From a virus: a stretch of DNA of 64,000 nt. Both the position numbers and the translations under genes were made by a program. How positions within the stretch are numbered: the stretch's first letter is position 1; each line of letters opens with the position of its first letter. The stretch is from IMG/VR virus record IMGVR_UViG_3300024999_000068, positions 1 through 64,000 of that record; one strand, written 5' to 3'. Below are positions 5,342 through 26,667 of the stretch, piece by piece. Below the pieces are notes generated by a model. The model was given only the letters and a program-made list of their open reading frames with translations, did no database searches and was not told the origin of the DNA.

Positions 5342-6646
5342 ATGAGAAAATATACATATATTGAAGTTTTTAATATTTTTAAAAATAGCATATATGAATT
5401 AATTACAAGTGAATATACAAATGTTGTTACAAAATTAGTATTCAAAGACAAAGATGAATATTATTATAGTCAAACATTAAATAAATTTATTCATAATCAA
5501 ATTCCTCCAAAATTTCATATTAGTAATATTTTTACATTACAAAATATTAAATTGTATTTACAGATTAACTTCCCTGAACATGAATTATTAACTGATAAAT
5601 ATATAAGTAATACATGCGAGATTCTTTTAAAGGACAAAGAAGGTTATTTATATTCTACTACATTAGCAAGATTACTTCATTCTACTATTCTACATAAGGT
5701 TCACTATTCTAATGAGTTTAGTCTTGACAATATAAATAATTTTCTAAAAATATCCAACACTACTTTAATTGTTTTGAATACAAGTTATGAAAAAAATTTA
5801 AACCTAATCGATTCTGATGGGTATCTTTATACAACGTCATGGAACAAACTACAATCTGGAAGACTGCCAATGTTTGTACATTCTTTAAATATTCATTCTC
5901 ATAGTAACATAAAAATATGGTTGGTTAAGAATAATAAAAAATTCGAATTAATTGATAATATTTATATTGACTCTATAAAAAAGTTAAAATTCAAGTGTTT
6001 AAAGTGCAACGAATTTTTTTATAGTGCATGGAGAGATATTAAGGATGAGTGTGGTTGCCCATACTGTTCAGGACATCAAGCGGGTTTAAGTAATTGCCTC
6101 GCAACTCTAAATCCCGAATTATCAAAAGAGTGGCACCCAGTTAAAAACGGTGTGTTAACGCCTTTTGATGTAATTACAGGAACCAGCAAAAAAGTTTGGT
6201 GGATATGTAGTGAATGTAGTCACGAATGGCCATCTACTGTAAAAAATCGCCACGATAAAAATTCTGGTTGCCCAGAGTGTAGTAAATCCAAAGGCGAAAA
6301 AAGAATTTCTAAAAATTTTATGTTAAAAAATATTCTTTTTATGCCACAAAAAGAATTTGAAGGATTAGTAGGAATAAACAATGGAAGTCTTTCTTATGAT
6401 TTTTATTTAAAGCAATACAATTTACTTATAGAATATCAAGGAGAAATGCATGAGAGATTTTGCAAAGGTATTCATAAGACTAAAAAAGACTTTGAAAAAC
6501 AAGTTGAACACGACAGGCGCAAGAAAGAATATGCATTGAAAAATAATATTAATTTTCTTGAAATTTGGTATTGGGATTTTAATAAGATTGAATCTATTTT
6601 AGATGGATATCTAAACTCCTTAAAGGATGTGTTGTCTATTGCATAA
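5342..6646 (+). CDS. Zinc-ribbon + Vsr/DUF559-like endonuclease (homing-endonuclease-like)
   Basis: CPYCSG...NPELSKEWHP...KVWWICSEC motifs; C-terminal SYDFYL...LIEYQGEMH...FLEIWY. Confidence 0.75.
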   Translation: MRKYTYIEVFNIFKNSIYELITSEYTNVVTKLVFKDKDEYYYSQTLNKFIHNQIPPKFHISNIFTLQNIKLYLQINFPEHELLTDKYISNTCEILLKDKEGYLYSTTLARLLHSTILHKVHYSNEFSLDNINNFLKISNTTLIVLNTSYEKNLNLIDSDGYLYTTSWNKLQSGRLPMFVHSLNIHSHSNIKIWLVKNNKKFELIDNIYIDSIKKLKFKCLKCNEFFYSAWRDIKDECGCPYCSGHQAGLSNCLATLNPELSKEWHPVKNGVLTPFDVITGTSKKVWWICSECSHEWPSTVKNRHDKNSGCPECSKSKGEKRISKNFMLKNILFMPQKEFEGLVGINNGSLSYDFYLKQYNLLIEYQGEMHERFCKGIHKTKKDFEKQVEHDRRKKEYALKNNINFLEIWYWDFNKIESILDGYLNSLKDVLSIA

Positions 6647-8716: not shown

Positions 8717-8968
8717 ATGGTAAAATTTGATGAAGTAAAATTATTTTATACTTGTTTTGCAAATCCACCAGAAGGTGTTTATATGAATAAAGTTTATCGT
8801 ATCATTAAGAAAGATGGTAAGTTATATTTTACAGATGGCACTACAGAATTTGTTGGAGAAGAAGAATACATTAAAATGTTATTCAGTCCTCAAGACGTAA
8901 AGATTTCTTGGGAAGATGTTGATTTTACCGATGAAGTAAAAATTACTAAAATGTTTGATAAGAAATAA
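8717..8968 (+). CDS. Hypothetical protein
   Basis: RBS ggagga. Confidence 0.55.
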   Translation: MVKFDEVKLFYTCFANPPEGVYMNKVYRIIKKDGKLYFTDGTTEFVGEEEYIKMLFSPQDVKISWEDVDFTDEVKITKMFDKK

Positions 8969-9080
8969 ATAAATATGGTTTTTTATAGGTCAGGCCAGAT
9001 TTATAAGAGTAATTAAGAGAGGCTGTGATTCTGATAAACAGTCTCTCTTCCCATTTATTCCTTTAATCAGAAGGGGGAAG
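8968..9080 (+). ncRNA. Cloverleaf leader RNA, copy 2
   Basis: Hairpins ttataggtc/gatttataa and aagagaggctgt/acagtctctctt; loop ttctgat complementary to atcagaa (9066-9072) abutting the RBS ggggg. Confidence 0.55.
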
Positions 9081-10498
9081 ATGCTAATGTCAAAAAGAAA
9101 TACATATGAATACGTCAAAAATGTAATAGAAGTTGAAACTAATATTGGATGGAAATTATTAAGTAAAATGTACATAAAAATAATCTAAACTTGTATATGC
9201 TTTGTGATAAAGGACATCCCGTACATATATCTTTTTCAAATTTCATTTCTGGATGTCGATGTAAGCAATGTTATTTAGATAAACTTAAAGAAATAAAAAA
9301 GTCAAAACCTAAAATAATAAATTCTGACGCTAGAGTAACCAGGAATATTTATGGATATGCCGATTGGGTTTATTCTGTTTTTGAGCGTGACAACTATACG
9401 TGTCAAAATTGTGGAGAAAAGAAATATGGTGATCTTAATGCTCATCATTTAGATGGATATAATTGGTGTATAAGTCGTAGAATAGATGTGACTAATGGGG
9501 TTACACTTTGTACGGATTGTCATAAAGAATTTCATCATAATTACGGATACGGGAATAATACCGAAGAACAGTTTATATCTTGGTCAATGGATAATGAAAA
9601 TAGTATATTTGATATTGATGAAGTAAAGAAAGAATCAGTCTTTAAAAATCGTCCTCCTAAAAAACAGACTATAGGAACTAAAGAATATGCTAGAAAGTAT
9701 TATTTAGAAAATAACCAAACATATTCAGAAGAAGATTTGGATAATATTTTTGATGAAATTATGACAGAATATCCTAATCCAGAAAATTTTACTACAACTA
9801 AATTTAAGGATGTATCTGGCGTAAACCCCATGAGTTTTACGGGAGTTTTTAAAATGCCTTGGATAGACGTATTAGATAAATATGGTAAGAAAGATGAAGT
9901 ATTCAAATATATTTGTGATGAATATCTAAATAATTATTATAAAGAATATAACTGTAGTTTTGAGGTATTTATTGATTTACATAAATATATTTCGCAGGAT
10001 TTAATCAAACAATATACAATAGAAAAAATTAAAGATTCTTGTGGATTTAAAGGATCTCACCAACAACATAATTTTGAAGGATTAAAAAGAAATTTATATG
10101 ATGTAAAAAATTCTTTAAATAAAATACCTTTCTTTAAAGAATTTATGGAATTGACAAGTATTTCTCTGTCATCATATTATAATTACTTTAGTACTAATAG
10201 TTATGATGAATTCATATTAAATTTCATAGATAATAAGGATGATTTAAAAGAATACGAGAAAAACAAGAAAGATAGAATGATTCAAATTTCAGCTATAGGC
10301 GGTAGGAATTCTGGATATACAGATGAAGAAAAAGAGGTAGAATTTAGAAGAGTATTTGATGGTTATTTTATTAAAAATGATAAATATCCAACTAGAAGAG
10401 AGTTTAATGATCTTTCTAAGTATTCAGAAAAAGCATATATGAAGAAATGGAAAATTAGTTGGAATAAAGTAAAAATAAAATATGGATATCCAGCATAA
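9081..10498 (+). pseudogene. HNH endonuclease with apparent frameshift near 9176-9181
   Basis: RBS and ATG at 9081/9087 open MSKRNTYEYVK...LLSKMYIK, which stops at about 9186; the ORF at 9191 continues in another frame with RDNYTCQNCG...AHHL...NGVTLCTDCHKEFH (HNH). Confidence 0.65.
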
Positions 10499-10561
10499 AA
10501 ACAAAAACAATTATAAACATTTGCAAAGTCTATAATTGTTCCCAATCACTCATCCCATAAA

Positions 10562-10610
10562 TAAGAGGAAAGACAGACAACCAAATTGTCTTTCTTTCCT
10601 CTTATTTTTT
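10562..10610 (+). terminator. Rho-independent terminator
   Basis: aagaggaaag...ctttcctctt stem followed by a T-run. Confidence 0.6.
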
Positions 10611-10713
10611 ACTATTTTATATCCTATCTACTAATCTAAAGTCAAACCAACCAATAATCCAAACCAAACCAAAACAAAAATCTAAAAAATAAAAGAAAGG
10701 GTGAAAACAAACA

Positions 10714-11475
10714 ATGACAATCTTAATAGAAGATGATTTAGGTCATCAAATACCACAATATCAAAATGCACTAGGAACAGCATTTGAACCAGTAAAAGGT
10801 GCTAATGGTGGAGTAAATGTAAATCTATCAGCAGGAGCAACCACAACAGCAATACTTCAATCTGCAGTATCAGCAACTTCAAATGGTGCAATTTTAGATG
10901 TTTCTGGCATGTCTACTTGTATTTTTGACATTCAAGGAACATTTGTCGGAACAATAACTTTTGAAGGATCTACAGATGATTCAGTTTGGTATCCAATTAA
11001 TACAACTCAAATGGGAGGAAATGTAATTGCAACAACTGCAACCGTAGTTGGATTATATAGATCAGTTGTTACAGGATTAAAAAGTGTTAGAGCAAGAGTT
11101 ACTTGGGCATCTGGAACTAGTGTTACTGTAAAAGCTAGGACTACTCCGTTAGAAGCACCTAGTAAAGTTGTTAATGCTACTGTAGTTGGAAGTTTAGTGA
11201 ATAATCAAACGAGCGTTGTAGTTACAGCAAATACAAATATACTTACCGCAAATTACACATCTACAAAATACTCAAAATCAGTTTTACAGGTAATGACAAA
11301 TACAGCAGGGGTTTTATCTTTGGTCGTAGATGGTGTTTCTGGCACATTAAATAGTGGGATAAATTTAGTTGCTAATGCATGGTATGAGTTTGATATATCT
11401 TTGCTTTCTGGGTTAACTTATAACTTGAAATTGTCTGTAGGAGCAACAATGCAAGTTAAATGGCAGGTGATTTAA
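10714..11475 (+). CDS. Virion-associated beta-rich protein (fibre/decoration-like)
   Basis: S/T/G/V-rich; GTFVGTITFEGSTDDSVWY jelly-roll-like motif. Confidence 0.55.
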   Translation: MTILIEDDLGHQIPQYQNALGTAFEPVKGANGGVNVNLSAGATTTAILQSAVSATSNGAILDVSGMSTCIFDIQGTFVGTITFEGSTDDSVWYPINTTQMGGNVIATTATVVGLYRSVVTGLKSVRARVTWASGTSVTVKARTTPLEAPSKVVNATVVGSLVNNQTSVVVTANTNILTANYTSTKYSKSVLQVMTNTAGVLSLVVDGVSGTLNSGINLVANAWYEFDISLLSGLTYNLKLSVGATMQVKWQVI

Positions 11476-11476
11476 T

Positions 11477-13603
11477 ATGGGTAATCCATTACAAGGGGCT
11501 GTAACTCCTGCACAATTTGCTACGCATTTGGCTGAAACTGCGAACTACTTAGAAAACGTATTTTCCACTAATGCAGTAGCAAACGTCTATAACCCTAGCA
11601 TTGCCGTAAATGGTAAAACGAGCTTATATTCGTGGGGTGGGATAATTGATAATGTAGACTCTGCCCTATTGGGGAAGATGCCTGTTTCGGCAGGACAAAC
11701 ATACACAATATCCATACCTAACACAGAAAATGGAATTGACCCTGTATTAAGATGTTACGATAATGGCTTAGTTTTTATTGGCAATAGTTCGGCAGTTTCA
11801 ACTTATCCCATTGCTACTGGGATAAGTGTTACGGCAATTGTAAACGCTGATGGTATGAAGCAAATAACCTTTACATTATCCTCTATTTCGCCTGTTGCTT
11901 TTGTGGAAAGTGTGATTATATTCCCGAATGCGACACATACTGTTGATGATTTCAATAGGATTAAAAACTCTATCGTTGTCCAAATAGGTAGTGCATATAT
12001 AGCGTCAAATGAGTCGTTAAAGGTCGCTTCAATGCCTACAGAGTATAGCAATGTACTGAATGACGTTCAATCTATAAAGGGTTCGCTTAAAGTTATTAAA
12101 AGCGGTAGTAACATATTCCTTAGAACTCCTTGGGATGCTACAAACGATCTTATAGAGCAAATATCCCTTGTTCTTTCTACGGTAGTCTTTGGGAGTAATC
12201 AATCTTTCGAGTTTAATAAGTATGCACTTGTGGCAAAGACAGTAGCCGATGCAGATATTCCAACAGCAGCGATGACACTGTTAAAGGATAATCTTGATAA
12301 CATTGCTCCTGCTAATTATAACGGAACTTATATTGGTGCAGGGCATGGCACTAACTCTGTTCAAAAAATAACCGTTACAGCACACGGCAAGACCGTTCAA
12401 GATGTCGGCTCTGAATGGACGGATAGCGGTGGAACAAAGTTTTATATCATACGGATTGTCGATGCTAATACTTTGTGGATGCTCTCTGAAAATAGTTCGG
12501 TCACTGATATTTGGGCATTCGCAAATATCGTAGGTACTACCTTGACTCACTCAGCAAGTGCAACCCATACAACAGCAATGACTATAACCACTAATGTTGT
12601 TTCCCAACTTTGGCCTTCAATTAAAAATCAAGTTAAGAAATTGCTATTGAATGGTAAGACTGAAATAACCCTTAATGGAGTTTATTATTGTGACTACTTA
12701 GACGTAGTACACACCTATGATATTACTGATACTCCTGCGTTACTGGCGTTTGTGAGGGCAAGTGTAGGAGGTGCCGTACAACCCGACTTCACAAGTCTAG
12801 CCATTACTGATAGTGCAAGAGTGGCTATTAACTACAGGTTTGGCGATAACGGATCATGCACCATTTCGCAATCACTAAGACTCAATAAAAATATCACAAT
12901 GGGTTATCTTGGGTTTATTCAGTCAAGTCCTTTACCGATTCCAACGAGTGGAACATTACAACAATATGTACCAAAGACATTGCCAACAACCGTTAATTCA
13001 GTGTTGTATAACTTTAAGACTATTCAGGACATTACAGCTTTAGCAAATGCCATTAATATGAGTTCGGCATGGTGGGAAGATGCCAATTCCCCCCCTGACA
13101 GATTTATTCAGTTTGCCAAAACATCAGGTGGGGCGAAGAATAATAACTTTGGTTTTATCCTTGGTTATTGTCCAGAGATTGGGCTAGGTGTACCTACCAC
13201 AAGGAAAACGAAAGCTAATGCAGACGCTTTTAATCTATTTACATCTAAGAAGCAATATCCTAAGGCTGTCGCAGGTGCGAGTGTAGATTATCCATATCCT
13301 TATACAGTAAATGCAAACTCTAATTTTGATATTGTCGCTTTTAGATGTCCCATTAATTACAATCTTGATCCAACGGCAACCAATATGTCTTGGTACTATG
13401 TCGGTGATACTATCTACTTGATGCTTGACTATCATGTTGATCTTAACAAGGTACTCGTATTACCTCAAAAGTTTGTAGGAAAAACAGTAACCGTTGTTGA
13501 AAAGTCGGCAAACTTTACGTTAGGGAGTACAATAGTAACGCCTGACGGTATCGCAATTAGCGTAACGGGTGGATACGGTAGTGCAATCCTAAAGATAAAC
13601 TAG
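11477..13603 (+). CDS. Tail fibre/receptor-binding-like protein (cassette with atypical composition)
   Basis: 708 aa, beta-rich, visibly more GC-rich than its flanks; bounded by palindromic sites. Confidence 0.55.
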   Translation: MGNPLQGAVTPAQFATHLAETANYLENVFSTNAVANVYNPSIAVNGKTSLYSWGGIIDNVDSALLGKMPVSAGQTYTISIPNTENGIDPVLRCYDNGLVFIGNSSAVSTYPIATGISVTAIVNADGMKQITFTLSSISPVAFVESVIIFPNATHTVDDFNRIKNSIVVQIGSAYIASNESLKVASMPTEYSNVLNDVQSIKGSLKVIKSGSNIFLRTPWDATNDLIEQISLVLSTVVFGSNQSFEFNKYALVAKTVADADIPTAAMTLLKDNLDNIAPANYNGTYIGAGHGTNSVQKITVTAHGKTVQDVGSEWTDSGGTKFYIIRIVDANTLWMLSENSSVTDIWAFANIVGTTLTHSASATHTTAMTITTNVVSQLWPSIKNQVKKLLLNGKTEITLNGVYYCDYLDVVHTYDITDTPALLAFVRASVGGAVQPDFTSLAITDSARVAINYRFGDNGSCTISQSLRLNKNITMGYLGFIQSSPLPIPTSGTLQQYVPKTLPTTVNSVLYNFKTIQDITALANAINMSSAWWEDANSPPDRFIQFAKTSGGAKNNNFGFILGYCPEIGLGVPTTRKTKANADAFNLFTSKKQYPKAVAGASVDYPYPYTVNANSNFDIVAFRCPINYNLDPTATNMSWYYVGDTIYLMLDYHVDLNKVLVLPQKFVGKTVTVVEKSANFTLGSTIVTPDGIAISVTGGYGSAILKIN
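11521..11544 (+). repeat. Palindromic cassette-boundary site A
   Basis: tacgcatttggctgaaactgcgaa: imperfect inverted repeat, in frame (THLAETA). Confidence 0.5.
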
Positions 13604-13628
13604 TGCGTAGTTGACAATAAACTACGAC
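13604..13628 (+). repeat. Palindromic cassette-boundary site B
   Basis: tgcgtagttgacaataaactacgac, immediately after the stop; cgtagtt/aactacg arms; related to site A. Confidence 0.5.
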
Positions 13629-13651
13629 AAAAGCAAATATAAAATATTACA

Positions 13652-13680
13652 AAAGAGAGTGCGATTTGCACTCTCTTTCT
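13652..13680 (+). terminator. Stem-loop terminator
   Basis: aaagagagtgc-gattt-gcactctcttt. Confidence 0.55.
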
Positions 13681-13709
13681 CTATGTGTAAAAAGGAACGA
13701 GGAGATATA

Positions 13710-14474
13710 TTGGATTATTATGGTATAATATATTCGGCAAAAAATTTAACAAATAATAAAAGATACATCGGTCAAACTACATGTACTCTAGAAAAAAGGA
13801 AAAAGGAGCATATTAATTCTGTTAGTAAACAAAAATTTACATTCCAAAAAGCAATGAAGAAATACGGCATAGAAAATTTTTTATGGGAAGTCATCGATTA
13901 TGCAGATTCTCCTGAAGAACTTGATTATAAAGAAACATACTGGATTGATCACTTTAACACTTATGGGCATGAAGGGTATAATATGACCATTGGTGGTCAG
14001 AAAAACCATACACCATCAAAAGAAGAACGTATTGAATACTTACGTACAAAACATGACGATAGAATATTTTTAGTATTTGATAAACTTGGTAACTTCATTG
14101 AGGAATCAGACAATAGATTTTTATTTTGTGTCGAAAACGATATGACCACGGGGGATCTTAATCAATCATTAAAAAATAGAAGACCTTCTGTTGGTGATTA
14201 TATTCTCATTTATAAAGATAAATTTACAGAAGAAAATCTGAAAAACAGAATTAGTAAGGTAAGGAATACTAAAGATTTTGTAGTATTTGATAAAAATAAT
14301 AATTATTTAGGGTGTTGGAACAATCAAACTCGTTGTTGTGAAGAAATAAATATTAGTACCAGAGGTATTCAAAGGCAACTAAATGAAAACGCAAATAGAG
14401 ACAACCTTCGTAAATACAAAATTTATTATATAGATGATACACCTGACAATCTTAAATCTTTTATGAACAAATAA
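13710..14474 (+). CDS. GIY-YIG homing endonuclease
   Basis: GIIY...KRYIGQT...RKKEH...E..WI...GYN; likely start TTG 13710 after RBS gaggag (ORF track starts at 13611). Confidence 0.8.
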   Translation: MDYYGIIYSAKNLTNNKRYIGQTTCTLEKRKKEHINSVSKQKFTFQKAMKKYGIENFLWEVIDYADSPEELDYKETYWIDHFNTYGHEGYNMTIGGQKNHTPSKEERIEYLRTKHDDRIFLVFDKLGNFIEESDNRFLFCVENDMTTGDLNQSLKNRRPSVGDYILIYKDKFTEENLKNRISKVRNTKDFVVFDKNNNYLGCWNNQTRCCEEINISTRGIQRQLNENANRDNLRKYKIYYIDDTPDNLKSFMNK

Positions 14475-14537
14475 AATATAGTAAAGGCATAATCATATAT
14501 TTGGTTGTGCCTTTGTTTTGATATGGAGTGAGATAAA

Positions 14538-15050
14538 ATTAATTACATACATGCATATGATTTGTCAATGGAGTCAACAGGATTTTGTATATTTGATGAA
14601 AATATGAATCCAATTTTAATTGATTCTATACAAACCAAGAAAAGTCAATCTCATGGTAAAAGACTCAAAGTAATTTATGATAAATTAATGGAATTAAGAG
14701 ATAAATATCCACCAAAAGTAATTGTAATTGAAAGAGGATTTAGTAGGTTTAATATGGCAACTCAGGTAATTTATCGGGTCCATGGTGTAACAAACTTGTT
14801 GTTTTACGACTGTGATCAGATATACTACCCTCCTAAAACCGTCAAAGAGGCAATATTAAGTGGAAATGCTACTAAGAAACAAGTGCAGGAAGAGATTAAG
14901 AAAAGATATCCTGATGTGGTTTTTAAGAATGAGGATGAATCGGACGCATACGCTGTTGGATTAACACATTTTATTAAGACTGGGAAGTTAGAATGGGTTA
15001 AGAATGTTGTGGTTAAGGAGAAGAAAGTTAGAGTTAAGAAGGAAAGTTAA
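14538..15050 (+). CDS. ruvC: Holliday junction resolvase RuvC-like
   Basis: AYDLSMESTG, VIERGF, PKTVKEAILSGNATK, EDESDAYAV; the first catalytic Asp lies upstream of the called TTG, implying an ATT start at 14538 after RBS ggagtgag. Confidence 0.8.
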   Translation: MNYIHAYDLSMESTGFCIFDENMNPILIDSIQTKKSQSHGKRLKVIYDKLMELRDKYPPKVIVIERGFSRFNMATQVIYRVHGVTNLLFYDCDQIYYPPKTVKEAILSGNATKKQVQEEIKKRYPDVVFKNEDESDAYAVGLTHFIKTGKLEWVKNVVVKEKKVRVKKES

Positions 15051-15168
15051 TGGAAGTCAAAGTATGAATGCTGTTGCAAAATCATTTAAAGTGGGACGTA
15101 CTAGATTATTTGCTTTCTTGCGTGATAAAGATATTTTAATGGTTATGGGTTTCTGGTATAATAGATAG
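15043..15168 (+). pseudogene. Antirepressor (ANT/KilAC) gene remnant
   Basis: Frame reads KVNGSQSMNAVAKSFKVGRTRLFAFLRDKDILM, a KilAC-type signature lacking its N-terminus. Confidence 0.55.
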
Positions 15169-15190
15169 GATAAGGAGTGATTAGATAATT

Positions 15191-15496
15191 ATGATAATTG
15201 AACCTAAAATTAAGAAAATTGAAATTTCTACTAATACTACTGGTCTTAAAATATTATGCGACAGATATCAAATAAATCTTAAATTAGATGGTAGAAAAAT
15301 TCCTTGGTTAGTTGAAAAGTTTAATGAGAATGGATTTAAAATAGAATATAAAGCACTTGTGCAACTTTTGAACAATCGTAGTGATTGGAGATTAATTTAT
15401 GCTGTGGGATTATGCCAGATATTTGAAGTAAGAATTGGAGATTTGTTTTATTTTGAAAATGATCAAGAGGAAAGAATAGATATAGATTTTCTTTAA
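15191..15496 (+). CDS. Cro/C1-type HTH DNA-binding protein
   Basis: LVQLLNNR...LCQIFEVRIGDLFYF is a typical XRE C-terminus. Confidence 0.6.
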   Translation: MIIEPKIKKIEISTNTTGLKILCDRYQINLKLDGRKIPWLVEKFNENGFKIEYKALVQLLNNRSDWRLIYAVGLCQIFEVRIGDLFYFENDQEERIDIDFL

Positions 15497-15527
15497 TGAA
15501 TGGATATTATTAATATCATTTTCTATA

Positions 15528-15556
15528 TTGACAGAATCACTTTCTCTATCTATAAT
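15528..15556 (+). promoter_or_regulatory. SigA-type promoter
   Basis: TTGACA-17-TATAAT. Confidence 0.7.
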
Positions 15557-15615
15557 AGTATTAAGGGATTGATAAACAATCACCTGAAAATATTAGAGTA
15601 GAGGGGATACATAAA

Positions 15616-15942
15616 ATGAAAAGAATGATTTATGTGGTAAAAGACCAGAATAATCACTTTGTTCGCAGGGATTGCTTTAAGAAAATAGATGGTGATAATT
15701 TGTATATTTCTTATAGAACTTTCAGTGAGGAATGTAGAGGATATATAGGATTTGAGGCGTGTAATGATGTGCTCAAGGCTTTAGAATTAAAAATTGGTAA
15801 TATTGGGTTAGATGTTAGATTTGGAGTCTCAGAAGTTGATTTAGATGAAGTTATTTTAATACATAATGAATTTGTTGGTAGTGGAAGAGTGGATAATATG
15901 GTTATTATTGACTTAGACGAAGTTGGTTTAGTATGGGAGTAA
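15616..15942 (+). CDS. Hypothetical protein
   Basis: RBS gagggg downstream of the consensus promoter. Confidence 0.55.
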   Translation: MKRMIYVVKDQNNHFVRRDCFKKIDGDNLYISYRTFSEECRGYIGFEACNDVLKALELKIGNIGLDVRFGVSEVDLDEVILIHNEFVGSGRVDNMVIIDLDEVGLVWE

Positions 15943-16118
15943 TTATTGAGTTTCCTTGTAGGGATTATTATTGTGATGATGAGTATGAAGATTATTATGC
16001 TGAAGAAGAATATGAGAGTTGGAATTATGATAATGATTGTGGTGTTGAAATTCTAAAAGAGAATTGGGTTAGAGGTTTTGTTAGGAAATGTTTGATGTTT
16101 GTTTTAATGAGGTTGTGA
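15933..16118 (+). CDS. Small acidic hypothetical protein
   Basis: Overlaps the upstream stop. Confidence 0.4.
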   Translation: MGVIIEFPCRDYYCDDEYEDYYAEEEYESWNYDNDCGVEILKENWVRGFVRKCLMFVLMRL

Positions 16119-16227
16119 AGGTTTTGATTAAGTTAATTTGAAAATTATGGGGGATTTTATTATCCCCTTGATTCCTTATTGTGATATAATTGAATTATCG
16201 AATAATTCATTGAAAGAGGAATTTATT

Positions 16228-16422
16228 ATGAAGATGGTTAGAAAAGTCAGAAAGAAAAATTGTCGTACGAAAGCGAGGTGTGTAATAGTGAAATATGAGT
16301 ATAAAAAACCAATGACATGTATTAATACTATGAGAGATATAATTCAATCTTCAATGAAAGAAAAGGGAATTACCCCAGAGCAAGCAAGAAAATCAATTGG
16401 AATTAAAAGATATGAAAAATAA
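16228..16422 (+). CDS. Putative antitoxin (small basic protein) upstream of PIN gene
   Basis: ATG 16228 after gagg; stop overlaps the PIN start. Confidence 0.4.
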   Translation: MKMVRKVRKKNCRTKARCVIVKYEYKKPMTCINTMRDIIQSSMKEKGITPEQARKSIGIKRYEK

Positions 16423-16984
16423 ACGAAGAATACGTCCAAGAGTGGTTGTTGATACCAATATATTTTTGAATTCATGGATAGACGGTTTAGGTAGTTGCAA
16501 TTACATTCTTGAATTAATTTCTATTAATAGTTTGAGATTATTATTTTCACAAGATACTATTGGAGAGTTCCTATATGTAGCGAAAAATTATTGTATATCA
16601 AATATGAGTAGTGATAAATCTAGAATCCCATTTATGCAAAATTTAGCTGAGATGTTTTATTTGGCAATATCTGTTGATACTTCAGAAACATTATGTCCAA
16701 AAATTAATGATATTTATGATGAGATGTTTCTGAAGTGTGCGATCGAGGGAAAAGCCAATTATCTTATCAGTAATGATTTTAGAAGTGGCATGCACGTATT
16801 AGGGATAAATGATAAAAATGATATTAAGATAGTTAGTTCTCAGGAATTTATTAAGACGTATGAAGAGTTGTTGGTTGGATATATTCTTGTTTTGTTAGTT
16901 TTGCAGAGGATAAAAATTGAGAGTTATAAACTCAATGGGGAAAACTCCACCCTCCTCTGTATTTATATAGAAATTATTATATAA
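16412..16984 (+). CDS. PIN-domain (VapC-like) putative toxin
   Basis: RVVVDTNIF, E in DTIGEF, DEMFLKCA, YLISND: the PIN acidic residues. Confidence 0.8.
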   Translation: MKNKRRIRPRVVVDTNIFLNSWIDGLGSCNYILELISINSLRLLFSQDTIGEFLYVAKNYCISNMSSDKSRIPFMQNLAEMFYLAISVDTSETLCPKINDIYDEMFLKCAIEGKANYLISNDFRSGMHVLGINDKNDIKIVSSQEFIKTYEELLVGYILVLLVLQRIKIESYKLNGENSTLLCIYIEIII

Positions 16985-17157
16985 ACTAATAAATAAAATT
17001 ATTTGACACAACGTTGGAGATAATGATATAATTAATCCATAAATAAAAAAGTATTGATATCTCACTTTTAGGACTCATCTTTCTTTTAAGATACATATGT
17101 GTTTTTACAACATATGAGTTTCTGGTATAATAACTAGAGAAGAAAGGATGAGATAGA

Positions 17158-17376
17158 ATGCCAAGGTTTAATAAAGTAAATCAAACAACAGGTAAGAAGC
17201 AGAGAATACAAGTAGGAGTAGTGACTACAGCAGAATTAAAGGGCGATCTTGAGATATTAGCCAAACATTATAAAAGGACATTATCTGATTTTTGTAAAAT
17301 TGAATTAGAAAAAGTTATTGAACTACCTGAGAATAAAGAAATATTGCAAAATACTAAGCATGAAGTAGATAATTAA
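17158..17376 (+). CDS. Small DNA-binding protein (ribbon-helix-helix-like)
   Basis: IQVGV...LKGDLEILAKHYKRTLSDF pattern. Confidence 0.5.
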   Translation: MPRFNKVNQTTGKKQRIQVGVVTTAELKGDLEILAKHYKRTLSDFCKIELEKVIELPENKEILQNTKHEVDN

Positions 17377-17432
17377 AGATAAAGAGGTATAATCTTGCTA
17401 TATGCTTGAATTAGCCTGTTTAACCTAGTTGG

Positions 17433-17521
17433 ATATTTCTAAACAATCCCTTATACTAGTAAATGTAAGGAAGATTAATTCGGCCTTAACATTTAAAAGA
17501 TAAGGGATTGTTTAGAAATAT
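17433..17521 (+). promoter_or_regulatory. 22-bp perfect inverted repeat overlapping promoter and RBS/start codon
   Basis: atatttctaaacaatcccttat (17433-17454) / ataagggattgtttagaaatat (17500-17521); TTGGAT-17-TATACT overlaps the 5' arm. Confidence 0.65.
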
Positions 17522-18002
17522 GCGTGAAATCAATTATAATGAACTAGTTAGTATCTCAGATGCCTATAGTGGTAAGCAAGTACAGGTATTTTTATCTTCT
17601 CCTATCCAGTCTATGAATACATATCAAATGTTTCGACTAGTAGATGATGGAGATAATCTAGAGTTTTATGACATAAATATTAATAAACCAACTCTTCAGG
17701 AAATGATGATTCCTAAAGATACTATTAAAGAGATTAATTATTTTGAAGGTGGAAATATCTATGAATCAGTATTCTCTATTAGTTTATTAAATGAATGTCA
17801 AATTGATTTTGCTATTAGTGAAAAACCTATGGTTTGCAAGAAATGTGACAAATTGTTAGATAGACATTTAATCCCATCTTGGCAAATAAATCAGATTGGA
17901 AGTTATGGTAGTCAATGGGATAATGAACGTGTTGTGATCGATTTTTGTGAAGATTGTTTGTTGGAATTTCTTGGCTATAAGGATGGTGAGATAGATGAGT
18001 AA
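17508..18002 (+). CDS. Hypothetical protein with C-terminal Zn-binding CxxC pairs
   Basis: CKKC ... DFCEDC. Confidence 0.55.
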   Translation: MFRNMREINYNELVSISDAYSGKQVQVFLSSPIQSMNTYQMFRLVDDGDNLEFYDININKPTLQEMMIPKDTIKEINYFEGGNIYESVFSISLLNECQIDFAISEKPMVCKKCDKLLDRHLIPSWQINQIGSYGSQWDNERVVIDFCEDCLLEFLGYKDGEIDE

Positions 18003-18762
18003 ATTAACATTATTTCAAAATGATAAATTTGGTAACATTAGAGTATTTATCAGAAATGAAGAGTTTTGGTTTGTTGCAAAAGATATATCAGATATACTCA
18101 AATATTCTGAAACAAATGCCATGACTAAGCGATTGGATAGTGATGAAATCATATCCGACAAATTGGAGGGTATGAATATGAAATCAACTTTAATAAATGA
18201 AAGTGGATTATATAATGCAATAATCGGTTCTAAATTGCCTGAAGCAAAGTTATTTAAAAAATGGATTACTTCTGAAGTGCTCCCTTCTATCCGTAAACAT
18301 GGTGCTTATATGACCGAAGATGTAATTGAAAAGACTTTAAATGATCCAGATTTTATTATTCAATTGGCAAATCAGTTAAAAGAAGAGAAGCAAAAGAGAT
18401 TATTTGTCGAGCAACAATTAGAAGAGCAGAGACCAAAAGTTGAGATTTATGATGAGTTAATTGATCAAAAAGATTTAATGAATTTTAAACAAGTTGCTAA
18501 TACATTTGGGTTTTGCGGAAGAAATACACTCATGAAAATATTGAGAGAAGAACATGTACTGTCTGACAATGGTTTTAATTGGAATCTACCATATGCTCAA
18601 TATCTTGAGGCCAATTTATTCAAAGTTAAGATTATCCCAAGAAGGACTCGTGATGGTGTGACAAATATTTGCACAACTTTGTGTACAGTGAAGGCATTGG
18701 AGTTTATTAAGAGGATTTTAGACAAAAAGAAAAGCTTGCAGTTAGAGCTACAAACTTTTTAG
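17995..18762 (+). CDS. Phage antirepressor (BRO-N + ANT/KilAC)
   Basis: WFVAKDI...INESGLY...FKKWITSEVLPSIRKHGAY; GRNTLMKILRE. Confidence 0.9.
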   Translation: MSKLTLFQNDKFGNIRVFIRNEEFWFVAKDISDILKYSETNAMTKRLDSDEIISDKLEGMNMKSTLINESGLYNAIIGSKLPEAKLFKKWITSEVLPSIRKHGAYMTEDVIEKTLNDPDFIIQLANQLKEEKQKRLFVEQQLEEQRPKVEIYDELIDQKDLMNFKQVANTFGFCGRNTLMKILREEHVLSDNGFNWNLPYAQYLEANLFKVKIIPRRTRDGVTNICTTLCTVKALEFIKRILDKKKSLQLELQTF

Positions 18763-18808
18763 GGTTTTTAATGAATTCATGTAAGTAGGATTATACCATA
18801 GATTTAGA

Positions 18809-18839
18809 GAAGAATCCATAGAAATATGGATTCTTTTTG
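18809..18839 (+). terminator. Rho-independent terminator
   Basis: aagaatccata-gaaa-tatggattcttttt. Confidence 0.7.
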
Positions 18840-18954
18840 TGATTGAAAAAATTAAGGTAGGTATAACCTTGCCCCTACGTCAAATATATGACGCACCATC
18901 AAACACAAGGAGTGTTAAATTTCTCCCTTAGTTTTAGTTTAATTTGATAGTTTT

Positions 18955-19071
18955 ACTAGCAGGAGATAGTGGCCTAATTACCCACTATTAGATGTAACTC
19001 GCACATCGCTTCTTGCTAGTTTTTATAATTATGGGCGAGTAGACAATAAAATAAAAATAAGAAAGCGAGTT
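18955..19071 (+). ncRNA. Cloverleaf leader RNA, copy 3
   Basis: Outer stem actagcaggag/cttcttgctagt plus T-run; hairpins atagtgg/ccactat and gatgt/acatc; loop aactcgc complementary to gcgagt (19035-19040) and gcgagtt (19065-19071, RBS position). Confidence 0.7.
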
Positions 19072-19078
19072 GTTGTAA

Positions 19079-21730
19079 TTGGAAAATGTTAAGGGTGAGA
19101 CTAAAGAGTTAAAAGAAATAAATAAACTGATAAATAATAATTGGTACGAGTATATTTTGGATGAGATTAAAAGTTTGTCAAGAGTAATGTCAGATACTCA
19201 ATTGTCAAAACACTATGACAAACCAATATCGAATATAGAGAAAATATTATATAAGATATTAAAGATTAACAGAAAATCACGTATTGAGAATTTAACCAAA
19301 GAAGAAATTATACAAATATATGAATATGTTCTATCAGGAGAAAGACTAATGTTTCCTAATGATTTTTATACTAAAGAAAAACATCATGAAATATTATTAA
19401 CATATCTTTTTAAAGAAAAATTAAATTGGGATACATATGATATATTAAAATATTTTAATTTTTCAACATTGGATAATAATAAGCTCTATGGATTAAGAAA
19501 AAATAAAAAGGTTATTGATATTGTAAATTTAATTAATAACATATTTAATACGGATTTTAAAATTTGGCAATATCAAGAATCTACTACTAATCATTATTTT
19601 GATTCTAAAAGTAATCTTGACGATGCAATAAAATGGTTTAAAGAAAACATCGCAAACGATAAAAACATTTACACCATTTATGAGGCATATAGTTATGGAC
19701 TTAATGCTTTGGCACATGAATACAAATTGTATCAAGGATTAATTAAAGGGAAGTTTGATAATAAACATTTTGACTTTTACGAATATGTATTTCAAGAAAA
19801 ATTCGACATGCAACATTACAAAAATAACAATTATCCTTTTGATATATTATTAATACCGATATCGTTAGATAATAAATCAATAATATATGAATTAACAGAT
19901 GCTTATTATAATTTAGATGATATTGGAAAAACACTAATAAATTGTATGATTAGGTATTGTGAAGAAAATAATAGATTCCCAACTTTTAATGATATGTTAA
20001 TAAAAGATGGATACATAAGTTATGATTATTATAAAAAATATTTTAGCAATATGGAAAACTTAAATAAATATATCTACAGACTTGATTTAAGACCAGAAAA
20101 AATGATATGCAATGACTGTTGTGAGGAATTTCCTTTTACAGAAGAGTTCTTTACTAATTCTAAAACAGACAGATTTGGACTTCTCTATCAGTGTAAAAAG
20201 TGCAATAGTAAATATACAATGAGATCGCATTATAAAAAAATTGGTATAATATTAGAACGGGATGTTACTGAAATTAATCCAACACAGTGGTGGAAATATG
20301 CTCATGAGGGAACGATACCTAAGATGCCAGATTTTTGTTTTGAAATTAACAACATGATAAAAATTATAAGACATGTATTTCACAATGAATTGAAGTTTAT
20401 CAATAAAGAAGATTTTCTAGATATTGATAGATATAATGTTCGCATGAATACATCTTTGTTTATTAGTAGCATATACTCTAAATTCTTTACGAAGAAAGAG
20501 ATGTTTCAACAATGCTTTCCAGAATATGAATTTATAGATGATGATTTTAATATTTACAATGATGAGAATACTAACAATATAATTAAAGAATGGATTGAAT
20601 TCAATAGTTTAAAAATAATAGATTTATTAAAGAACGGAAATACATCATTGTTCGATAAGGAAATTAACAATCTATATGTTACTAGATTTTGTTCAATCAC
20701 AGATATGTTTTTATGGTATTTTAATTATAATAATGTATTACATCCAATCCATAAAAGAGTAATATCTGTTTTTGATTTTCAACAAAAACCAGATGGGTTT
20801 TGGGATGTAAAAGAAAATAGAATAACTCGTATAAAGATGTATTGTGAACAGGAATGTAAAGAAAGCATCTTAAGTGTAATTAATGATAATATTTTACTTA
20901 AAAATTGGACTAAACGATATTTTACAATGTTAAAAATCAGTAAAATAGTTATCAATTACAATAAGTATAATAATACACTGTATGACACGCTTATAGAAAC
21001 TTATCCAGAAATAAAAGTTAATAATATATTATTTAGTTGGGAATGGGTACAGATTAAAAATGGAACTTACTCAAGAGAGTATTTGATAGATTGCTTGAGA
21101 GAATTGGTCATATATCGTATGAATGATTTGATAATAGACATAGAAGAAGACTTGCCAAGGTATATGAATAATACATATATAAATACAATTTATCCAAGAT
21201 TTAATCAACATAAAAATAAAAATTTTAAATCATATTATGAATGGTCTTGCCTAGCTTTCCCCGAATACGATAATGAGTGGAAACCAGATGACTTTGGGAG
21301 TACATACGCTTTTGATGGTGCAAAATGTGATAGCATTCAAGAAAAAATGGCTTATGAGTATATTAAAAGAGACTTTGGTCTTGAGTATATTATGAGTATG
21401 GGAAGGAGGCATAGCGGTTCACATATAATAGAAGTTGATAAAGAAATATATGGATTTAAAAAATGTTGTCCAGATTTCATTATTGAAAAAATATTTATTA
21501 AAAATAGGATAAAACAATTAGATAAGCCAATTTATATTGAATATTATGGTTTATATGTTGAAAATAATAAAGATAAGATATTTGTCAACTATGTGAAAAA
21601 GACTCATCAGAAAAACGAAATATACAATTCACTAGATAATATTATATTTATAGCACTGTATCCATCAGATTTAAAAAATAACTGCGAAGGAGTAAAGAAT
21701 AAAATGAATAATGCATTGTCAAAAATATAA
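19079..21730 (+). CDS. Large multi-repeat endonuclease-like protein (helical repeats, Zn finger, C-terminal PD-(D/E)XK)
   Basis: C-terminal DSIQEKMAYEY...PDF...YIEYYGL; central CxxC...CKKC. Confidence 0.6.
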   Translation: MENVKGETKELKEINKLINNNWYEYILDEIKSLSRVMSDTQLSKHYDKPISNIEKILYKILKINRKSRIENLTKEEIIQIYEYVLSGERLMFPNDFYTKEKHHEILLTYLFKEKLNWDTYDILKYFNFSTLDNNKLYGLRKNKKVIDIVNLINNIFNTDFKIWQYQESTTNHYFDSKSNLDDAIKWFKENIANDKNIYTIYEAYSYGLNALAHEYKLYQGLIKGKFDNKHFDFYEYVFQEKFDMQHYKNNNYPFDILLIPISLDNKSIIYELTDAYYNLDDIGKTLINCMIRYCEENNRFPTFNDMLIKDGYISYDYYKKYFSNMENLNKYIYRLDLRPEKMICNDCCEEFPFTEEFFTNSKTDRFGLLYQCKKCNSKYTMRSHYKKIGIILERDVTEINPTQWWKYAHEGTIPKMPDFCFEINNMIKIIRHVFHNELKFINKEDFLDIDRYNVRMNTSLFISSIYSKFFTKKEMFQQCFPEYEFIDDDFNIYNDENTNNIIKEWIEFNSLKIIDLLKNGNTSLFDKEINNLYVTRFCSITDMFLWYFNYNNVLHPIHKRVISVFDFQQKPDGFWDVKENRITRIKMYCEQECKESILSVINDNILLKNWTKRYFTMLKISKIVINYNKYNNTLYDTLIETYPEIKVNNILFSWEWVQIKNGTYSREYLIDCLRELVIYRMNDLIIDIEEDLPRYMNNTYINTIYPRFNQHKNKNFKSYYEWSCLAFPEYDNEWKPDDFGSTYAFDGAKCDSIQEKMAYEYIKRDFGLEYIMSMGRRHSGSHIIEVDKEIYGFKKCCPDFIIEKIFIKNRIKQLDKPIYIEYYGLYVENNKDKIFVNYVKKTHQKNEIYNSLDNIIFIALYPSDLKNNCEGVKNKMNNALSKI

Positions 21731-21831
21731 AGTAGATATAAATAACAATGAGTTTCAATTAAAACTTGCATACCTCATATGTTTGTAATATAATGTAAGC
21801 ACCTATAAAATCGAACAAGGAGGTATGCAAC

Positions 21832-22991: not shown

Positions 22992-23096
22992 GGCAACATC
23001 TGCAATTGCAATGCAGTAGAAGAGGTAAACTCCCCTCTTCTTTTTTGTTGCCTTTTTATAATGTTTTGGATGGAGTAGTTAATAAATTTAAGGAGT
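22992..23096 (+). ncRNA. Cloverleaf leader RNA, copy 4
   Basis: Outer stem ggcaaca/tgttgcc plus T-run; hairpins ctgca/tgcag and gaagagg/cctcttc; loop actcc complementary to ggagt at 23072-23076 and 23092-23096 (RBS). Confidence 0.7.
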
Positions 23097-26666: not shown

Positions 26667-26667
26667 T

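What the first reader, a model, noticed from the sequence alone, without database searches (positions are those of the whole stretch)
11477..13628. Tail-fibre-like cassette bounded by two related palindromic sites, one in frame: possible integron-like module exchange
Seen: after a ~15-codon N-terminus, site A (tacgcatttggctgaaactgcgaa, read as THLAETA) marks a shift to visibly more GC-rich DNA. Site B (tgcgtagttgacaataaactacgac) sits immediately after the stop codon, where AT-rich DNA resumes. Both are imperfect palindromes with the shared frame CGYAkTTGrC..AAACTrCGA in direct orientation, and their differences partly preserve pairing. Inference: site-specific (attC-like or tyrosine-recombinase) or hairpin-guided recombination swaps receptor-binding modules onto a constant N-terminus. 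No recombinase is visible in this window.
Basis: partly seen in the sequence, partly recalled or inferred. Interest (0 to 1): 0.7.

Follow-up and report, generated by a model that had tools for sequence, protein, structure and literature searches.

The report
Swappable phage receptor-binding module with conserved boundaries
This is a phage host-recognition gene whose short front end stays constant while the rest is replaced in related phages, an already familiar way for phages to change host range, and both marked sites fall at the edges of the replaced part.

Summary
The ORF at 11477-13603 (708 aa) is a modular receptor-binding-type protein. The two sites exist where stated.

Supported by relatives:
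- Ten distinct loci carry the same upstream ~100-aa domain and the same first 14-23 codons (M.NPLQG.VTP..F...), then unrelated distal modules, including GDSL esterase and BNR.
- DNA homology to the window ends at 11540-11553 in 5 of 9 loci, at 11519-11520 in 3 and at 11508 in 1. Site A spans 11521-11544.
- Homology to L008 resumes at 13606, inside site B.
- An exact 10-mer, CGYAGTWGAC, follows the last cassette stop in 5 loci and occurs nowhere else in 350 kb.

Not supported:
- The A/B resemblance is at chance level.
- The hairpins are not conserved.
- The main GC step is near 10770, not at site A.
- The 86.5-kb record holds no recombinase.
- Contigs show no excision joint.

Best reading: module exchange by homologous recombination in conserved flanks, plus domain-boundary shuffling. 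The neighbouring GIY-YIG homing endonuclease may help.

Some features remain unexplained: rare NCG codons kept at both ends of site A, the strict 10-mer, and a Xer-like recombinase next to the cassette in 2 loci. These keep a short-core site-specific mechanism alive at about 12%.

New member of a known kind.

The parts
9191..10498 (+). HNH homing-endonuclease gene (AT-rich upstream flank)
   Evidence: PHROG HNH endonuclease families, best E 3.4e-14. Pfam HNH_2 scores below its cut-off. GC 0.266.
10714..11178 (+). N-terminal 155 codons of the upstream 253-aa ORF (P0002): orphan, variable part
   Evidence: No Pfam or PHROG family. No tblastn match in GenBank phages. Relatives match only aa 145/156-253. 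GC3 0.084.
11179..11475 (+). Conserved C-terminal ~100-aa domain of P0002, proposed docking partner of the fibre N-terminus
   Evidence: 69-78% aa identity to 7 loci and 53% to L024. DNA homology with relatives starts at 11169-11187 in 7 loci. Its stop lies 1 nt before the next ATG.
11477..13603 (+). 708-aa modular receptor-binding-type protein (P0001)
   Evidence: ORF. 54 homologues in metagenomes, two of them with a BppU_N N-terminus. AF2 model with mean pLDDT 90.7.
11477..11545 (+). Codons 1-23: conserved N-terminal peptide (M.NPLQG.VTP..F) plus the start of helix 11-28
   Evidence: Alignment of 10 loci: M1, P4, L5, Q6, G7 and T10 invariant. Codon table. Helix 11-28 in the model.
11521..11544 (+). 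Site A: in-frame imperfect palindrome at the 5' mosaic boundary
   Evidence: blastn homology with 9 loci ends at 11508 (1 locus), 11519-11520 (3) and 11540-11553 (5). Codons 16 and 22 are rare NCG codons in 8 of 9 and 7 of 7 NCN cells.
11546..13603 (+). Exchangeable distal module: beta domain aa 29-185, helix 188-201, large domain aa 204-708
   Evidence: No homology to the distal parts of L007 or L008. GC3 0.324. Foldseek matches galactose-mutarotase-like supersandwich and glycoside-hydrolase-associated folds at low TM. 22 of 54 homologues match only from aa 159-240 onward.
13604..13628 (+). Site B: post-stop 7-bp hairpin at the 3' mosaic boundary
   Evidence: Arms 13606-13612 and 13620-13626, 100% complementary. 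Homology to L008 resumes at 13606. A contig in 3 runs also starts matching at 13606.
13606..13615 (+). Conserved 10-mer CGTAGTTGAC (family CGYAGTWGAC)
   Evidence: Found once in each of 5 distinct loci, 0-10 nt after the last cassette stop, and nowhere else in 350,316 bases on both strands. It is the only invariant block in the 3'-flank alignment.
13651..13679 (.). Terminator-like hairpin
   Evidence: -12.9 kcal/mol, z -6.7. 11-nt perfect arms. The scan flags it on the - strand. An analogous hairpin is present in all 5 loci.
13710..14474 (+). GIY-YIG free-standing homing-endonuclease gene (TTG start after GAGGAG)
   Evidence: Pfam GIY-YIG at 33.3 bits against a cut-off of 22.6. PHROG homing endonuclease, E 1.8e-23. 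83% aa identity to the L008 copy. No match in L011, L015 or L024, and none among the ORFs listed around the L007 cassette.
14562..15050 (+). RuvC-like Holliday-junction resolvase (neighbour, general recombination)
   Evidence: PHROG 159, E 2.7e-27. 86% identical copy in L026 in the same context.

Best explanation
WHAT IT IS. The 708-aa ORF is a modular virion receptor-binding or glycan-processing protein. Its first 14-23 residues are a constant attachment peptide, and everything after them is an exchangeable module. The C-terminal ~100-aa domain of the gene just upstream is constant along with that peptide.

HOW IT WORKS. Related phages in the same groundwater community carry the same 'joint' with unrelated distal modules. 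The modules are replaced by general (homologous) recombination in two conserved flanks. The 5' flank is the ~370-bp joint. The 3' flank is the post-stop intergenic element and terminator, plus the GIY-YIG gene in some phages. On top of this, selection keeps only those fusions that fall at protein domain boundaries.

WHAT THE TWO SITES ARE. Site A is the coding sequence at the distal edge of the constant peptide. Site B is the first conserved DNA after the module's stop codon. They are boundary markers, not a demonstrated pair of recombinase sites.

SHOWN AND INFERRED. Shown: the mosaic structure, the breakpoints, the foreign codon composition of the module, and the lack of a recombinase in the record. 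Inferred: docking of the peptide on the upstream domain, homologous recombination as the mechanism, and a stimulating role for double-strand breaks made by the adjacent homing endonuclease.
For: - Ten distinct loci share ...ATMQVKWQVI(stop), then an ORF starting M.NPLQG.VTP..F, with distal parts of 708, 571, 684(+204), 562, 422, 349, 435, 503, 80 (cut short) and over 193 (contig end) aa.
- Beyond the N-terminus these are mostly unrelated.
- Pfam places 2 of them in GDSL esterases and 1 in BNR_2.
- 5' homology to the window ends at 11508-11553 in 9 of 9 loci and starts at 11169-11187 in 7 of them.
- 3' homology to L008 runs 13606-14464 at 83%.
- A wider group (L018-L026) keeps the upstream domain and an M..PPQG start on a collar-type 162-163-aa fibre. 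The N-terminal motif is therefore conserved at protein level across different fibres.
- The module's GC3 is 0.32 against a genome mean of 0.19. The L008 module shows the same contrast (0.32-0.33 against 0.14-0.21).
- The same family is also shuffled at internal boundaries. 13 of 54 homologues start matching at aa 36, and 22 of 54 at aa 159-240, some as stand-alone ~500-aa proteins.
- Depth over the joint reaches 954 against 46.9 for this phage's own contig, so many relatives share the joint in one community.
- Known parallels: conserved N-terminal peptides that attach RBPs to an adapter (passages of PMC6872550), and RBP variants co-present and exchanged within phage pan-genomes (passages of PMC7468147).
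Against: - Between the sub-groups (window/L008, L007/L011, L015), the conserved 3' DNA is only the 10-mer and a hairpin. That is too short for ordinary homologous recombination.
- The 10-mer is far more conserved than its surroundings and has no assigned function.
- Codons 16 and 22 keep rare NCG codons while the amino acid changes. Only 3 of 33 comparable columns behave so. This points to a nucleotide-level constraint that protein docking does not explain.
- Own 5' and 3' cores match slightly better than cross-locus pairs (37 of 55 matches, equal to the maximum of 120 permutations, P = 0.067).
- No exchange event was observed directly. No cassette was found twice in different backbones.
- Binding of the peptide to the upstream domain has not been shown.
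Confidence: 0.6

Rival explanations
1. Short-core site-specific cassette exchange. A recombinase acts on a core NCGYAG-like sequence present both in frame (codons 16-17) and after the stop. The enzyme could be the Xer-like tyrosine recombinase found beside the cassette in some relatives, encoded here in the missing 43% of the genome or supplied by a co-infecting phage. It would excise and insert receptor-binding modules as units.
For: - Breakpoints sit at both sites.
- The strict 10-mer lies at the 3' boundary in 5 loci and nowhere else in 350 kb.
- NCG codons are conserved at both ends of site A.
- The first five bases NCGYA are identical at the 5' and 3' sites within L008, L011 and L015 (3 of 5 loci), with permutation P = 0.067.
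- A PF00589 recombinase is convergent just downstream of the cassette in L007 and L015.
- A contig in runs X1-X3 shows a second, partial copy of the motif 5 nt before the 10-mer position.
- The outer four pairs of the site-A stem are kept in 7 of 10 loci (62.9% of cells paired against 54% in shuffles, 6 of 500 shuffles as high).
Against: - No recombinase of three families is in the 86.5-kb record or in L008's 23.9-kb record.
- Only 2 of 8 loci with a complete 3' flank have a recombinase nearby.
- A/B similarity is not above random.
- There are no inverted arms around the 10-mer in 4 of 5 loci.
- 5' breakpoints are spread over about 45 nt.
- Three loci use a different 3' motif.
- There is no internal site between the two genes of the L008 cassette.
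- None of the 10 loci is empty.
- Contigs show no joints, though contigs cannot show rare forms.
Confidence: 0.12
2. Homing-endonuclease-driven co-conversion. The GIY-YIG enzyme encoded 100 bp downstream cuts endonuclease-less relatives near the conserved 3' element during co-infection. Repair then copies the endonuclease gene together with the neighbouring module. The 10-mer would be part of its target, and the cassette hitch-hikes.
For: - The GIY-YIG gene is present next to the cassette in the window and L008 (83% aa identity).
- No match to it was found in L011, L015 or L024, and none is among the ORFs listed around the L007 cassette. L007, L011 and L015 nevertheless keep the 10-mer.
- The block shared with L008 ends at 14464, the end of the endonuclease gene.
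- The window is crowded with homing-endonuclease genes at 376-1644, 5342-6646, 9191-10498 and 23095-24219.
- Depth over the GIY-YIG region reaches 2979.
- Marker co-conversion by phage endonucleases is established knowledge (recalled; the Goodrich-Blair and Shub 1996 paper was seen only as a reference entry in PMC7468147).
Against: - The window and L008 share the endonuclease gene but carry different modules, so the two do not always travel together.
- The 10-mer is intact in the endonuclease-bearing genomes, where a target is usually disrupted or altered.
- The endonuclease gene's GC3 (0.212) is backbone-like, unlike the module's (0.324).
- No cleavage data exist.
Confidence: 0.15
3. The 10-mer is a relic or part of the attachment or resolution site of the neighbouring Xer-like recombinase (attP or dif-like). 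It would be conserved because it must match a host or partner site, and would be unrelated to module exchange. Site A would be pure coding sequence.
For: - The recombinase gene ends about 120 nt from the 10-mer in L007, and lies about 1.2 kb away in L015.
- The motif is conserved while its surroundings diverge.
Against: - Three of the 5 loci with the 10-mer have no recombinase nearby.
- There are no inverted arms around it in L007 or L015.
- No bacterial genome with this joint was found, so the attB idea could not be tested.
Confidence: 0.08

Closest known systems
Receptor-binding proteins with a short conserved N-terminal docking peptide on an adapter or branching domain (K1E/K1-5/SP6, KP32/KP34-type Klebsiella phages; Latka et al. 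2019, PMC6872550, passages read; PMC13352976, start of abstract only)
   Same: A short N-terminal peptide is constant within a phage group. It is followed by unrelated enzymatic distal domains, here GDSL, BNR and a supersandwich fold. A neighbouring gene provides a co-conserved domain. RBP genes interrupt otherwise syntenic structural genes and are transferred horizontally.
   Different: The partner here is a ~100-aa domain with no Pfam or PHROG family, not a T4gp10-like domain. In 4 loci (L008, L012, L014, L016) it appears to be the whole of a small protein of about 110 aa. The hosts are uncultivated low-GC groundwater bacteria. Binding is not shown. A strict 10-mer marks the 3' boundary.
Recombination between conserved motifs in the T-even distal tail-fibre locus (Tetart, Desplats and Krisch 1998; seen only as a reference entry in PMC7468147; content recalled)
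   Same: Conserved sequence stretches that flank variable adhesin segments act as homologous-recombination points and swap host specificity.
   Different: In T-even phages the motifs are repeated in-frame coding boxes inside one gene. Here one boundary is coding and the other is intergenic, and the two are not demonstrably alike.
Metagenomic islands and flexible RBP genes of phage pan-genomes (Bellas et al. 2020, PMC7468147, passages read)
   Same: Several variants of a receptor-binding gene are co-present in one community on a near-constant backbone, with homing endonucleases among the most variable neighbours.
   Different: Here the boundaries are resolved to a few nucleotides, and the constant part extends 14-23 codons into the gene.
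Integron gene cassettes (attI/attC with IntI; features recalled)
   Same: A promoterless unit is bounded by sites in direct orientation, with the 3' site directly after the stop codon. The same locus holds many alternative cassettes.
   Different: There is no IntI-type integrase, no conserved folded attC-like palindrome, no cassette array and no site between the two genes of a two-gene cassette. The 5' boundary is inside a coding sequence.
Invertible tail-fibre segments (Mu G/Gin, P1 C/Cin) and shufflons (recalled)
   Same: A constant N-terminal fibre part is joined to alternative C-terminal parts at a short site inside the gene.
   Different: Those systems use inverted repeats, an adjacent invertase or Rci, and alternative segments kept within one genome. 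Here the sites are direct, no invertase is present, and the alternatives lie in different genomes.

Membership tests
RBP with conserved N-terminal docking peptide plus adapter | Short N-terminal peptide conserved among RBPs whose distal domains are unrelated | tested here: met
   10 loci: M1, P4, L5, Q6, G7 and T10 invariant. Distal parts mostly unrelated and of different Pfam families.
RBP with conserved N-terminal docking peptide plus adapter | A partner (adapter or branching) domain that co-occurs and is co-conserved with the peptide | tested here: met
   The upstream ~100-aa domain is present directly before the fibre ORF in 10 of 10 loci, at 53-78% identity across the 8 other loci aligned. 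A wider group keeps both the domain and a PPQG start.
RBP with conserved N-terminal docking peptide plus adapter | Physical binding of the peptide to the partner domain | not testable with these tools
   Needs pull-down or structure determination. See Tried and rejected for the modelling attempt.
RBP with conserved N-terminal docking peptide plus adapter | Distal domain binds or degrades a surface glycan | tested here: inconclusive
   The AF2 model (pLDDT 90.7) matches galactose-mutarotase-like and GH-associated supersandwich folds only at low TM, 0.16-0.44. No Pfam family. Sister modules are GDSL and BNR_2.
Integron cassette / attC | IntI-type tyrosine integrase at the locus | tested here: not met
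   PF00589: 0 matches in the 86,550-bp record, with the control positive in 14 of 14 genomes. The record is 57% complete.
Integron cassette / attC | 3' site is an imperfect palindrome whose structure, not sequence, is conserved | tested here: not met
   An inverted repeat at the 10-mer is found only in the window, 1 of 5 loci. The opposite holds here: the sequence is conserved and the structure is not.
Integron cassette / attC | One site after every cassette in multi-gene arrays | tested here: not met
   The L008 cassette has two genes (684 and 204 aa) and only one 10-mer, after the second.
Tyrosine-recombinase core site (lox/dif/att type; recalled definition) | Two inverted binding arms around a 6-8-bp spacer, the same at both partner sites | tested here: not met
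   Window site B has 7-bp arms and a 7-nt spacer, but L007, L008, L011 and L015 do not. Sites A and B are not significantly alike.
Invertible fibre segment / shufflon | Inverted repeats plus an adjacent invertase (serine) or Rci | tested here: not met
   The sites are in direct orientation. PF00239: 0 matches. PF00589: 0 matches.
IS200/IS605-type hairpin-guided transposition | Y1 (HUH) transposase and conserved subterminal hairpins | tested here: not met
   PF01797: 0 matches. Hairpins are not conserved.
Free-standing GIY-YIG homing endonuclease (the 3' neighbour) | GIY-YIG catalytic domain, with presence/absence polymorphism between related genomes | tested here: met
   PF01541 at 33.3 bits against a cut-off of 22.6. 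Present in the window and L008. No match in L011, L015 or L024, and none among the ORFs listed around the L007 cassette. Cleavage was not tested.

The most novel reading that the evidence does not exclude
A cassette system for phage receptor-binding modules that works through a very short conserved core, NCGYAG(TWGAC). The core occurs once in frame at codons 16-17 of a constant N-terminal peptide and once directly after the module's stop. A Xer-like recombinase, or a break-and-microhomology process, would use it to move whole host-range modules between phages of 26-43% GC. Joining the two cores would leave an in-frame TAG, so an empty site would encode a 16-residue stub.
Probability: 0.12. Interest if true: 0.8.

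Novelty: new member of a known kind. Interest (0 to 1): 0.4.

Why it matters
It gives a clean natural example, in uncultivated low-GC groundwater phages, of how host range is re-tooled. A 14-23-residue constant peptide and a ~100-aa partner domain form a universal socket. At least ten different glycan-directed modules plug into it, with boundaries resolved to a few nucleotides.

That is directly usable as a map of where nature allows such fusions. It also flags a small partner domain of no known family as a candidate adapter.

Three features remain unexplained. They are the strict 10-mer, the rare NCG codons held at the boundaries, and the recombinase and homing-endonuclease genes that collect at the 3' side. 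Read-level data could show whether any sequence-directed process adds to ordinary recombination in phage mosaicism, which is an old question (linker sequences versus random recombination plus selection).

Tried and rejected
DATABASE SEARCHES THAT FOUND NOTHING
- GenBank phages: megablast of 9000-15000 and tblastn of both proteins gave no match.
- IMG/VR with P0001: no relative.
- GTDB genomes with the joint alignment: none. The idea that the 10-mer matches a bacterial attB could therefore not be tested.
- Rfam on 11400-13800 at E <= 1: 0 matches.
- The sigma-70-type promoter scan gave fewer sites than shuffles and none at site B. By eye, the TTGACA within the 10-mer has no -10 box at 16-18 nt, so a promoter role was dropped (sequence).

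STRUCTURE AND COMPLEX MODELLING
- A complex-prediction job with 3 copies of the upstream domain alignment and 3 copies of the N-terminal 40-aa alignment returned 'no answer' (score 0.01, mark 0.32, controls not run). It is no evidence either way.
- The Foldseek PDB search gave only low-TM carbohydrate-enzyme supersandwich matches. I did not run the VIA searches.

READS
- Read laying had contigs only. It showed no joints, and contigs cannot show rare circles or deletions.

A TOOL THAT WAS CLOSED
I could not see that second context.

ERRORS OF MINE, CORRECTED
- In some searches the GIY-YIG gene was taken from 13711, one base out of frame. The 'GIY' tblastn identity (71.5%) and the GC3 value 0.362 from those calls are wrong.
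- Searches give the correct values: GC3 0.212 and 83% aa identity. The correct-frame ORF was used.

REJECTED READINGS
- The block as a transposed unit carried by the endonuclease. The backbone relatives L020 and L026 have a P2-like gene plus a short fibre at the same place, so the location is ancestral for this backbone.
- Site A as the single crossover point. Breakpoints fall at three positions.

PAPERS
- Supplements of papers were not opened. The supplementary logos of conserved peptides in PMC6872550 might show whether any known peptide resembles M.NPLQG.
Full report
WHAT IS AT THE COORDINATES

The window is the first 64 kb of an 86,550-bp viral record. The record has 29% GC and is 57% complete by CheckV. 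ORF 11477-13603 encodes 708 aa (P0001).

Site A lies at 11521-11544 and encodes T16-N23. Site B lies at 13604-13628 and starts one base after the TAG stop.

The upstream ORF 10714-11475 (P0002, 253 aa) ends 1 nt before the ATG. Neither protein matches a Pfam or PHROG family.

The AT-rich flanks are selfish genes. An HNH endonuclease gene lies at 9191-10498 and a GIY-YIG homing-endonuclease gene at 13710-14474. A RuvC-like resolvase gene follows at 14562-15050.

A strong terminator-like hairpin sits at 13651-13679.

ARE THE TWO SITES MORE THAN CHANCE?

Taken alone, they are not.
- As DNA the hairpins are weak, -3.8 and -5.6 kcal/mol.
- 442 places in the record match site B as well as site A does.
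- With positions fixed by homology breakpoints, 5' and 3' boundary windows are no more alike than random pairs in 5 loci (P = 0.07-0.74).
- Overall GC steps up near 10770, not at site A. The maximum-likelihood segment is 10768-13626.
- Synonymous-site GC does rise along the region, from 0.084 to 0.242 to 0.324. P0001 has the highest GC3 of 37 ORFs (z = 2.6).

THE DECISIVE COMPARISON

The upstream domain found 2 IMG/VR loci and 16 metagenome loci. Some are the same contigs.

Ten distinct loci, the window among them, have ...ATMQVKWQVI(stop) followed by an ORF that begins M.NPLQG.VTP..F and then diverges. Their distal parts are mostly unrelated. They include GDSL esterases (L014, L015) and a BNR_2 protein (L024).

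blastn of the window against these loci gives the following.
- Homology starts at 11169-11187, inside P0002, in 7 loci.
- It ends at 11540-11553 in 5 loci (L007, L008, L011, L012, L014).
- It ends at 11519-11520 in 3 loci (L015, L017, L024) and at 11508 in 1 (L016).
- These end points are the two edges of site A.

On the 3' side, homology to L008 resumes at 13606 and runs to 14464, the end of the GIY-YIG gene, at 83%. A contig present in three runs also begins to match at 13606, with different sequence before it.

THE 3' ELEMENT

The exact pattern CG[CT]AGT[AT]GAC occurs once in each of 5 distinct loci (window, L007, L008, L011, L015). It lies 0-10 nt after the last cassette stop, and in L011 it overlaps the stop. 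It occurs nowhere else in 350,316 bases on both strands. It is the only invariant block of the 3'-flank alignment.

Three other loci (L014, L017, L024) carry a different shared motif, TTCRCTAAAGA. The collar-fibre group has neither.

The palindrome around the 10-mer exists only in the window.

SITE A AT NUCLEOTIDE LEVEL

The hairpin is clear only in the window and L008 (-7.0 kcal/mol, z -3.9) and weak in L015.

Pair counts give 62.9% of cells paired against 54% in shuffles, with 6 of 500 shuffles as high. By the tool's own caveats this is inconclusive.

More telling are codons 16 and 22. They are NCG in 8 of 9 and 7 of 7 NCN cells, although the amino acid varies (T, A or S) and NCG makes up only 4-7% of Thr, Ala and Ser codons in this genome. 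Among 33 comparable columns only 3 behave so, and the third lies at the 5' edge of the joint.

The first five bases of the own 5' and 3' cores are identical in 3 of 5 loci (permutation P = 0.067).

These are unexplained hints of a DNA-level constraint. They are not proof of a site.

WHAT THE PROTEIN IS

There are 54 homologues at 24-50% identity. Most have longer N-termini, and two carry BppU_N. They start matching at:
- aa 36 in 13;
- aa 3-33 or 48 in 19;
- aa 159-240 in 22, several of them stand-alone ~500-aa proteins.

The family is therefore shuffled at domain boundaries. I saw no such motif on reading the DNA at the internal boundary near aa 200.

The AF2 model (pLDDT 90.7) has a helix at 11-28, a beta domain at 29-185, a helix at 188-201 and a large domain at 204-708. 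Foldseek gives low-TM matches to galactose-mutarotase-like and glycoside-hydrolase-associated supersandwiches.

In L007 and L008 the gene pair sits at the end of the tail genes, before the endolysin and holin genes. In the window and its backbone relatives L020 and L026 it sits between head-type structural genes and RuvC.

RECOMBINASES

PF00589, PF00239, PF01797 and the L007 recombinase all give no match in the record. A Xer-like PF00589 protein lies convergent to the cassette in L007 and L015 only. Contigs of three runs show no joint.

CONCLUSION

The module-exchange reading is supported, and the integron-like mechanism is not.

The best-supported mechanism is homologous recombination in the conserved joint and 3' flank, together with domain-boundary shuffling (confidence 0.6). 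The adjacent homing endonuclease may stimulate it.

The closest known systems are:
- the conserved-peptide and adapter RBP architecture (PMC6872550, passages);
- motif-flanked adhesin swapping in T-even phages (reference entry only);
- flexible RBP genes of phage pan-genomes (PMC7468147, passages).

A short-core site-specific mechanism remains possible at about 12%.

Noticed in passing
window 8968-21800: Relative to L001 and L002, the window carries about 13 kb of accessory DNA between the head-type structural genes and the tail genes. It holds the HNH gene, P0002/P0001, the GIY-YIG gene, RuvC, small ORFs, an Ant-like gene and an 883-aa ORF. At the same spot L001 has a RusA-like resolvase and an integrase, while L003, L004 and L006 have homing endonucleases.
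   Followed up: partly
window 10714-11178: The N-terminal 155 codons of P0002 have no relative in any search. They also have the lowest GC3 seen here (0.084) with high GC1 and GC2 (0.48, 0.51). This amino-acid composition is what causes the GC step near 10770.
   Followed up: partly
window 13606 (contigs in runs X1-X3): An abundant variant (depth 249 against 47) matches from 13606 onward. Before that it reads ...TTAGCGTAGTAGTAAGT, a second partial copy of the 3' motif 5 nt upstream of the 10-mer position.
   Followed up: no
L014 1760, L017 1567, L024 2199: A second shared 3' motif, TTCRCTAAAGA, lies 23-55 nt after the fibre stop in three loci that lack the 10-mer.
   Followed up: no
window 11197-11199 and the same column in 8 loci: A GCG codon is conserved in 8 of 8 other loci (the window has GTG), close to the 5' edge of the conserved joint. 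It is one of only 3 NCG-dominated columns out of 33.
   Followed up: no
L012 374-616: The fibre ORF of L012 stops after 80 codons, although sequence resembling a longer gene continues. This may be a frameshift, a pseudogene or an assembly error.
   Followed up: no
L018, L020-L023, L026: A sister group keeps the P2-like domain (58-63% identity, ending ...KWVGGA) followed by a 162-163-aa fibre that begins M..PPQG. L026 also has an 86%-identical RuvC downstream, as in the window.
   Followed up: partly
window 26000-28000: There is a second locally GC-rich stretch (0.37) at the start of the 1529-aa ORF. An earlier first-reader note places a group I intron in the tape measure gene just upstream, at 26144-26685.
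   Followed up: no
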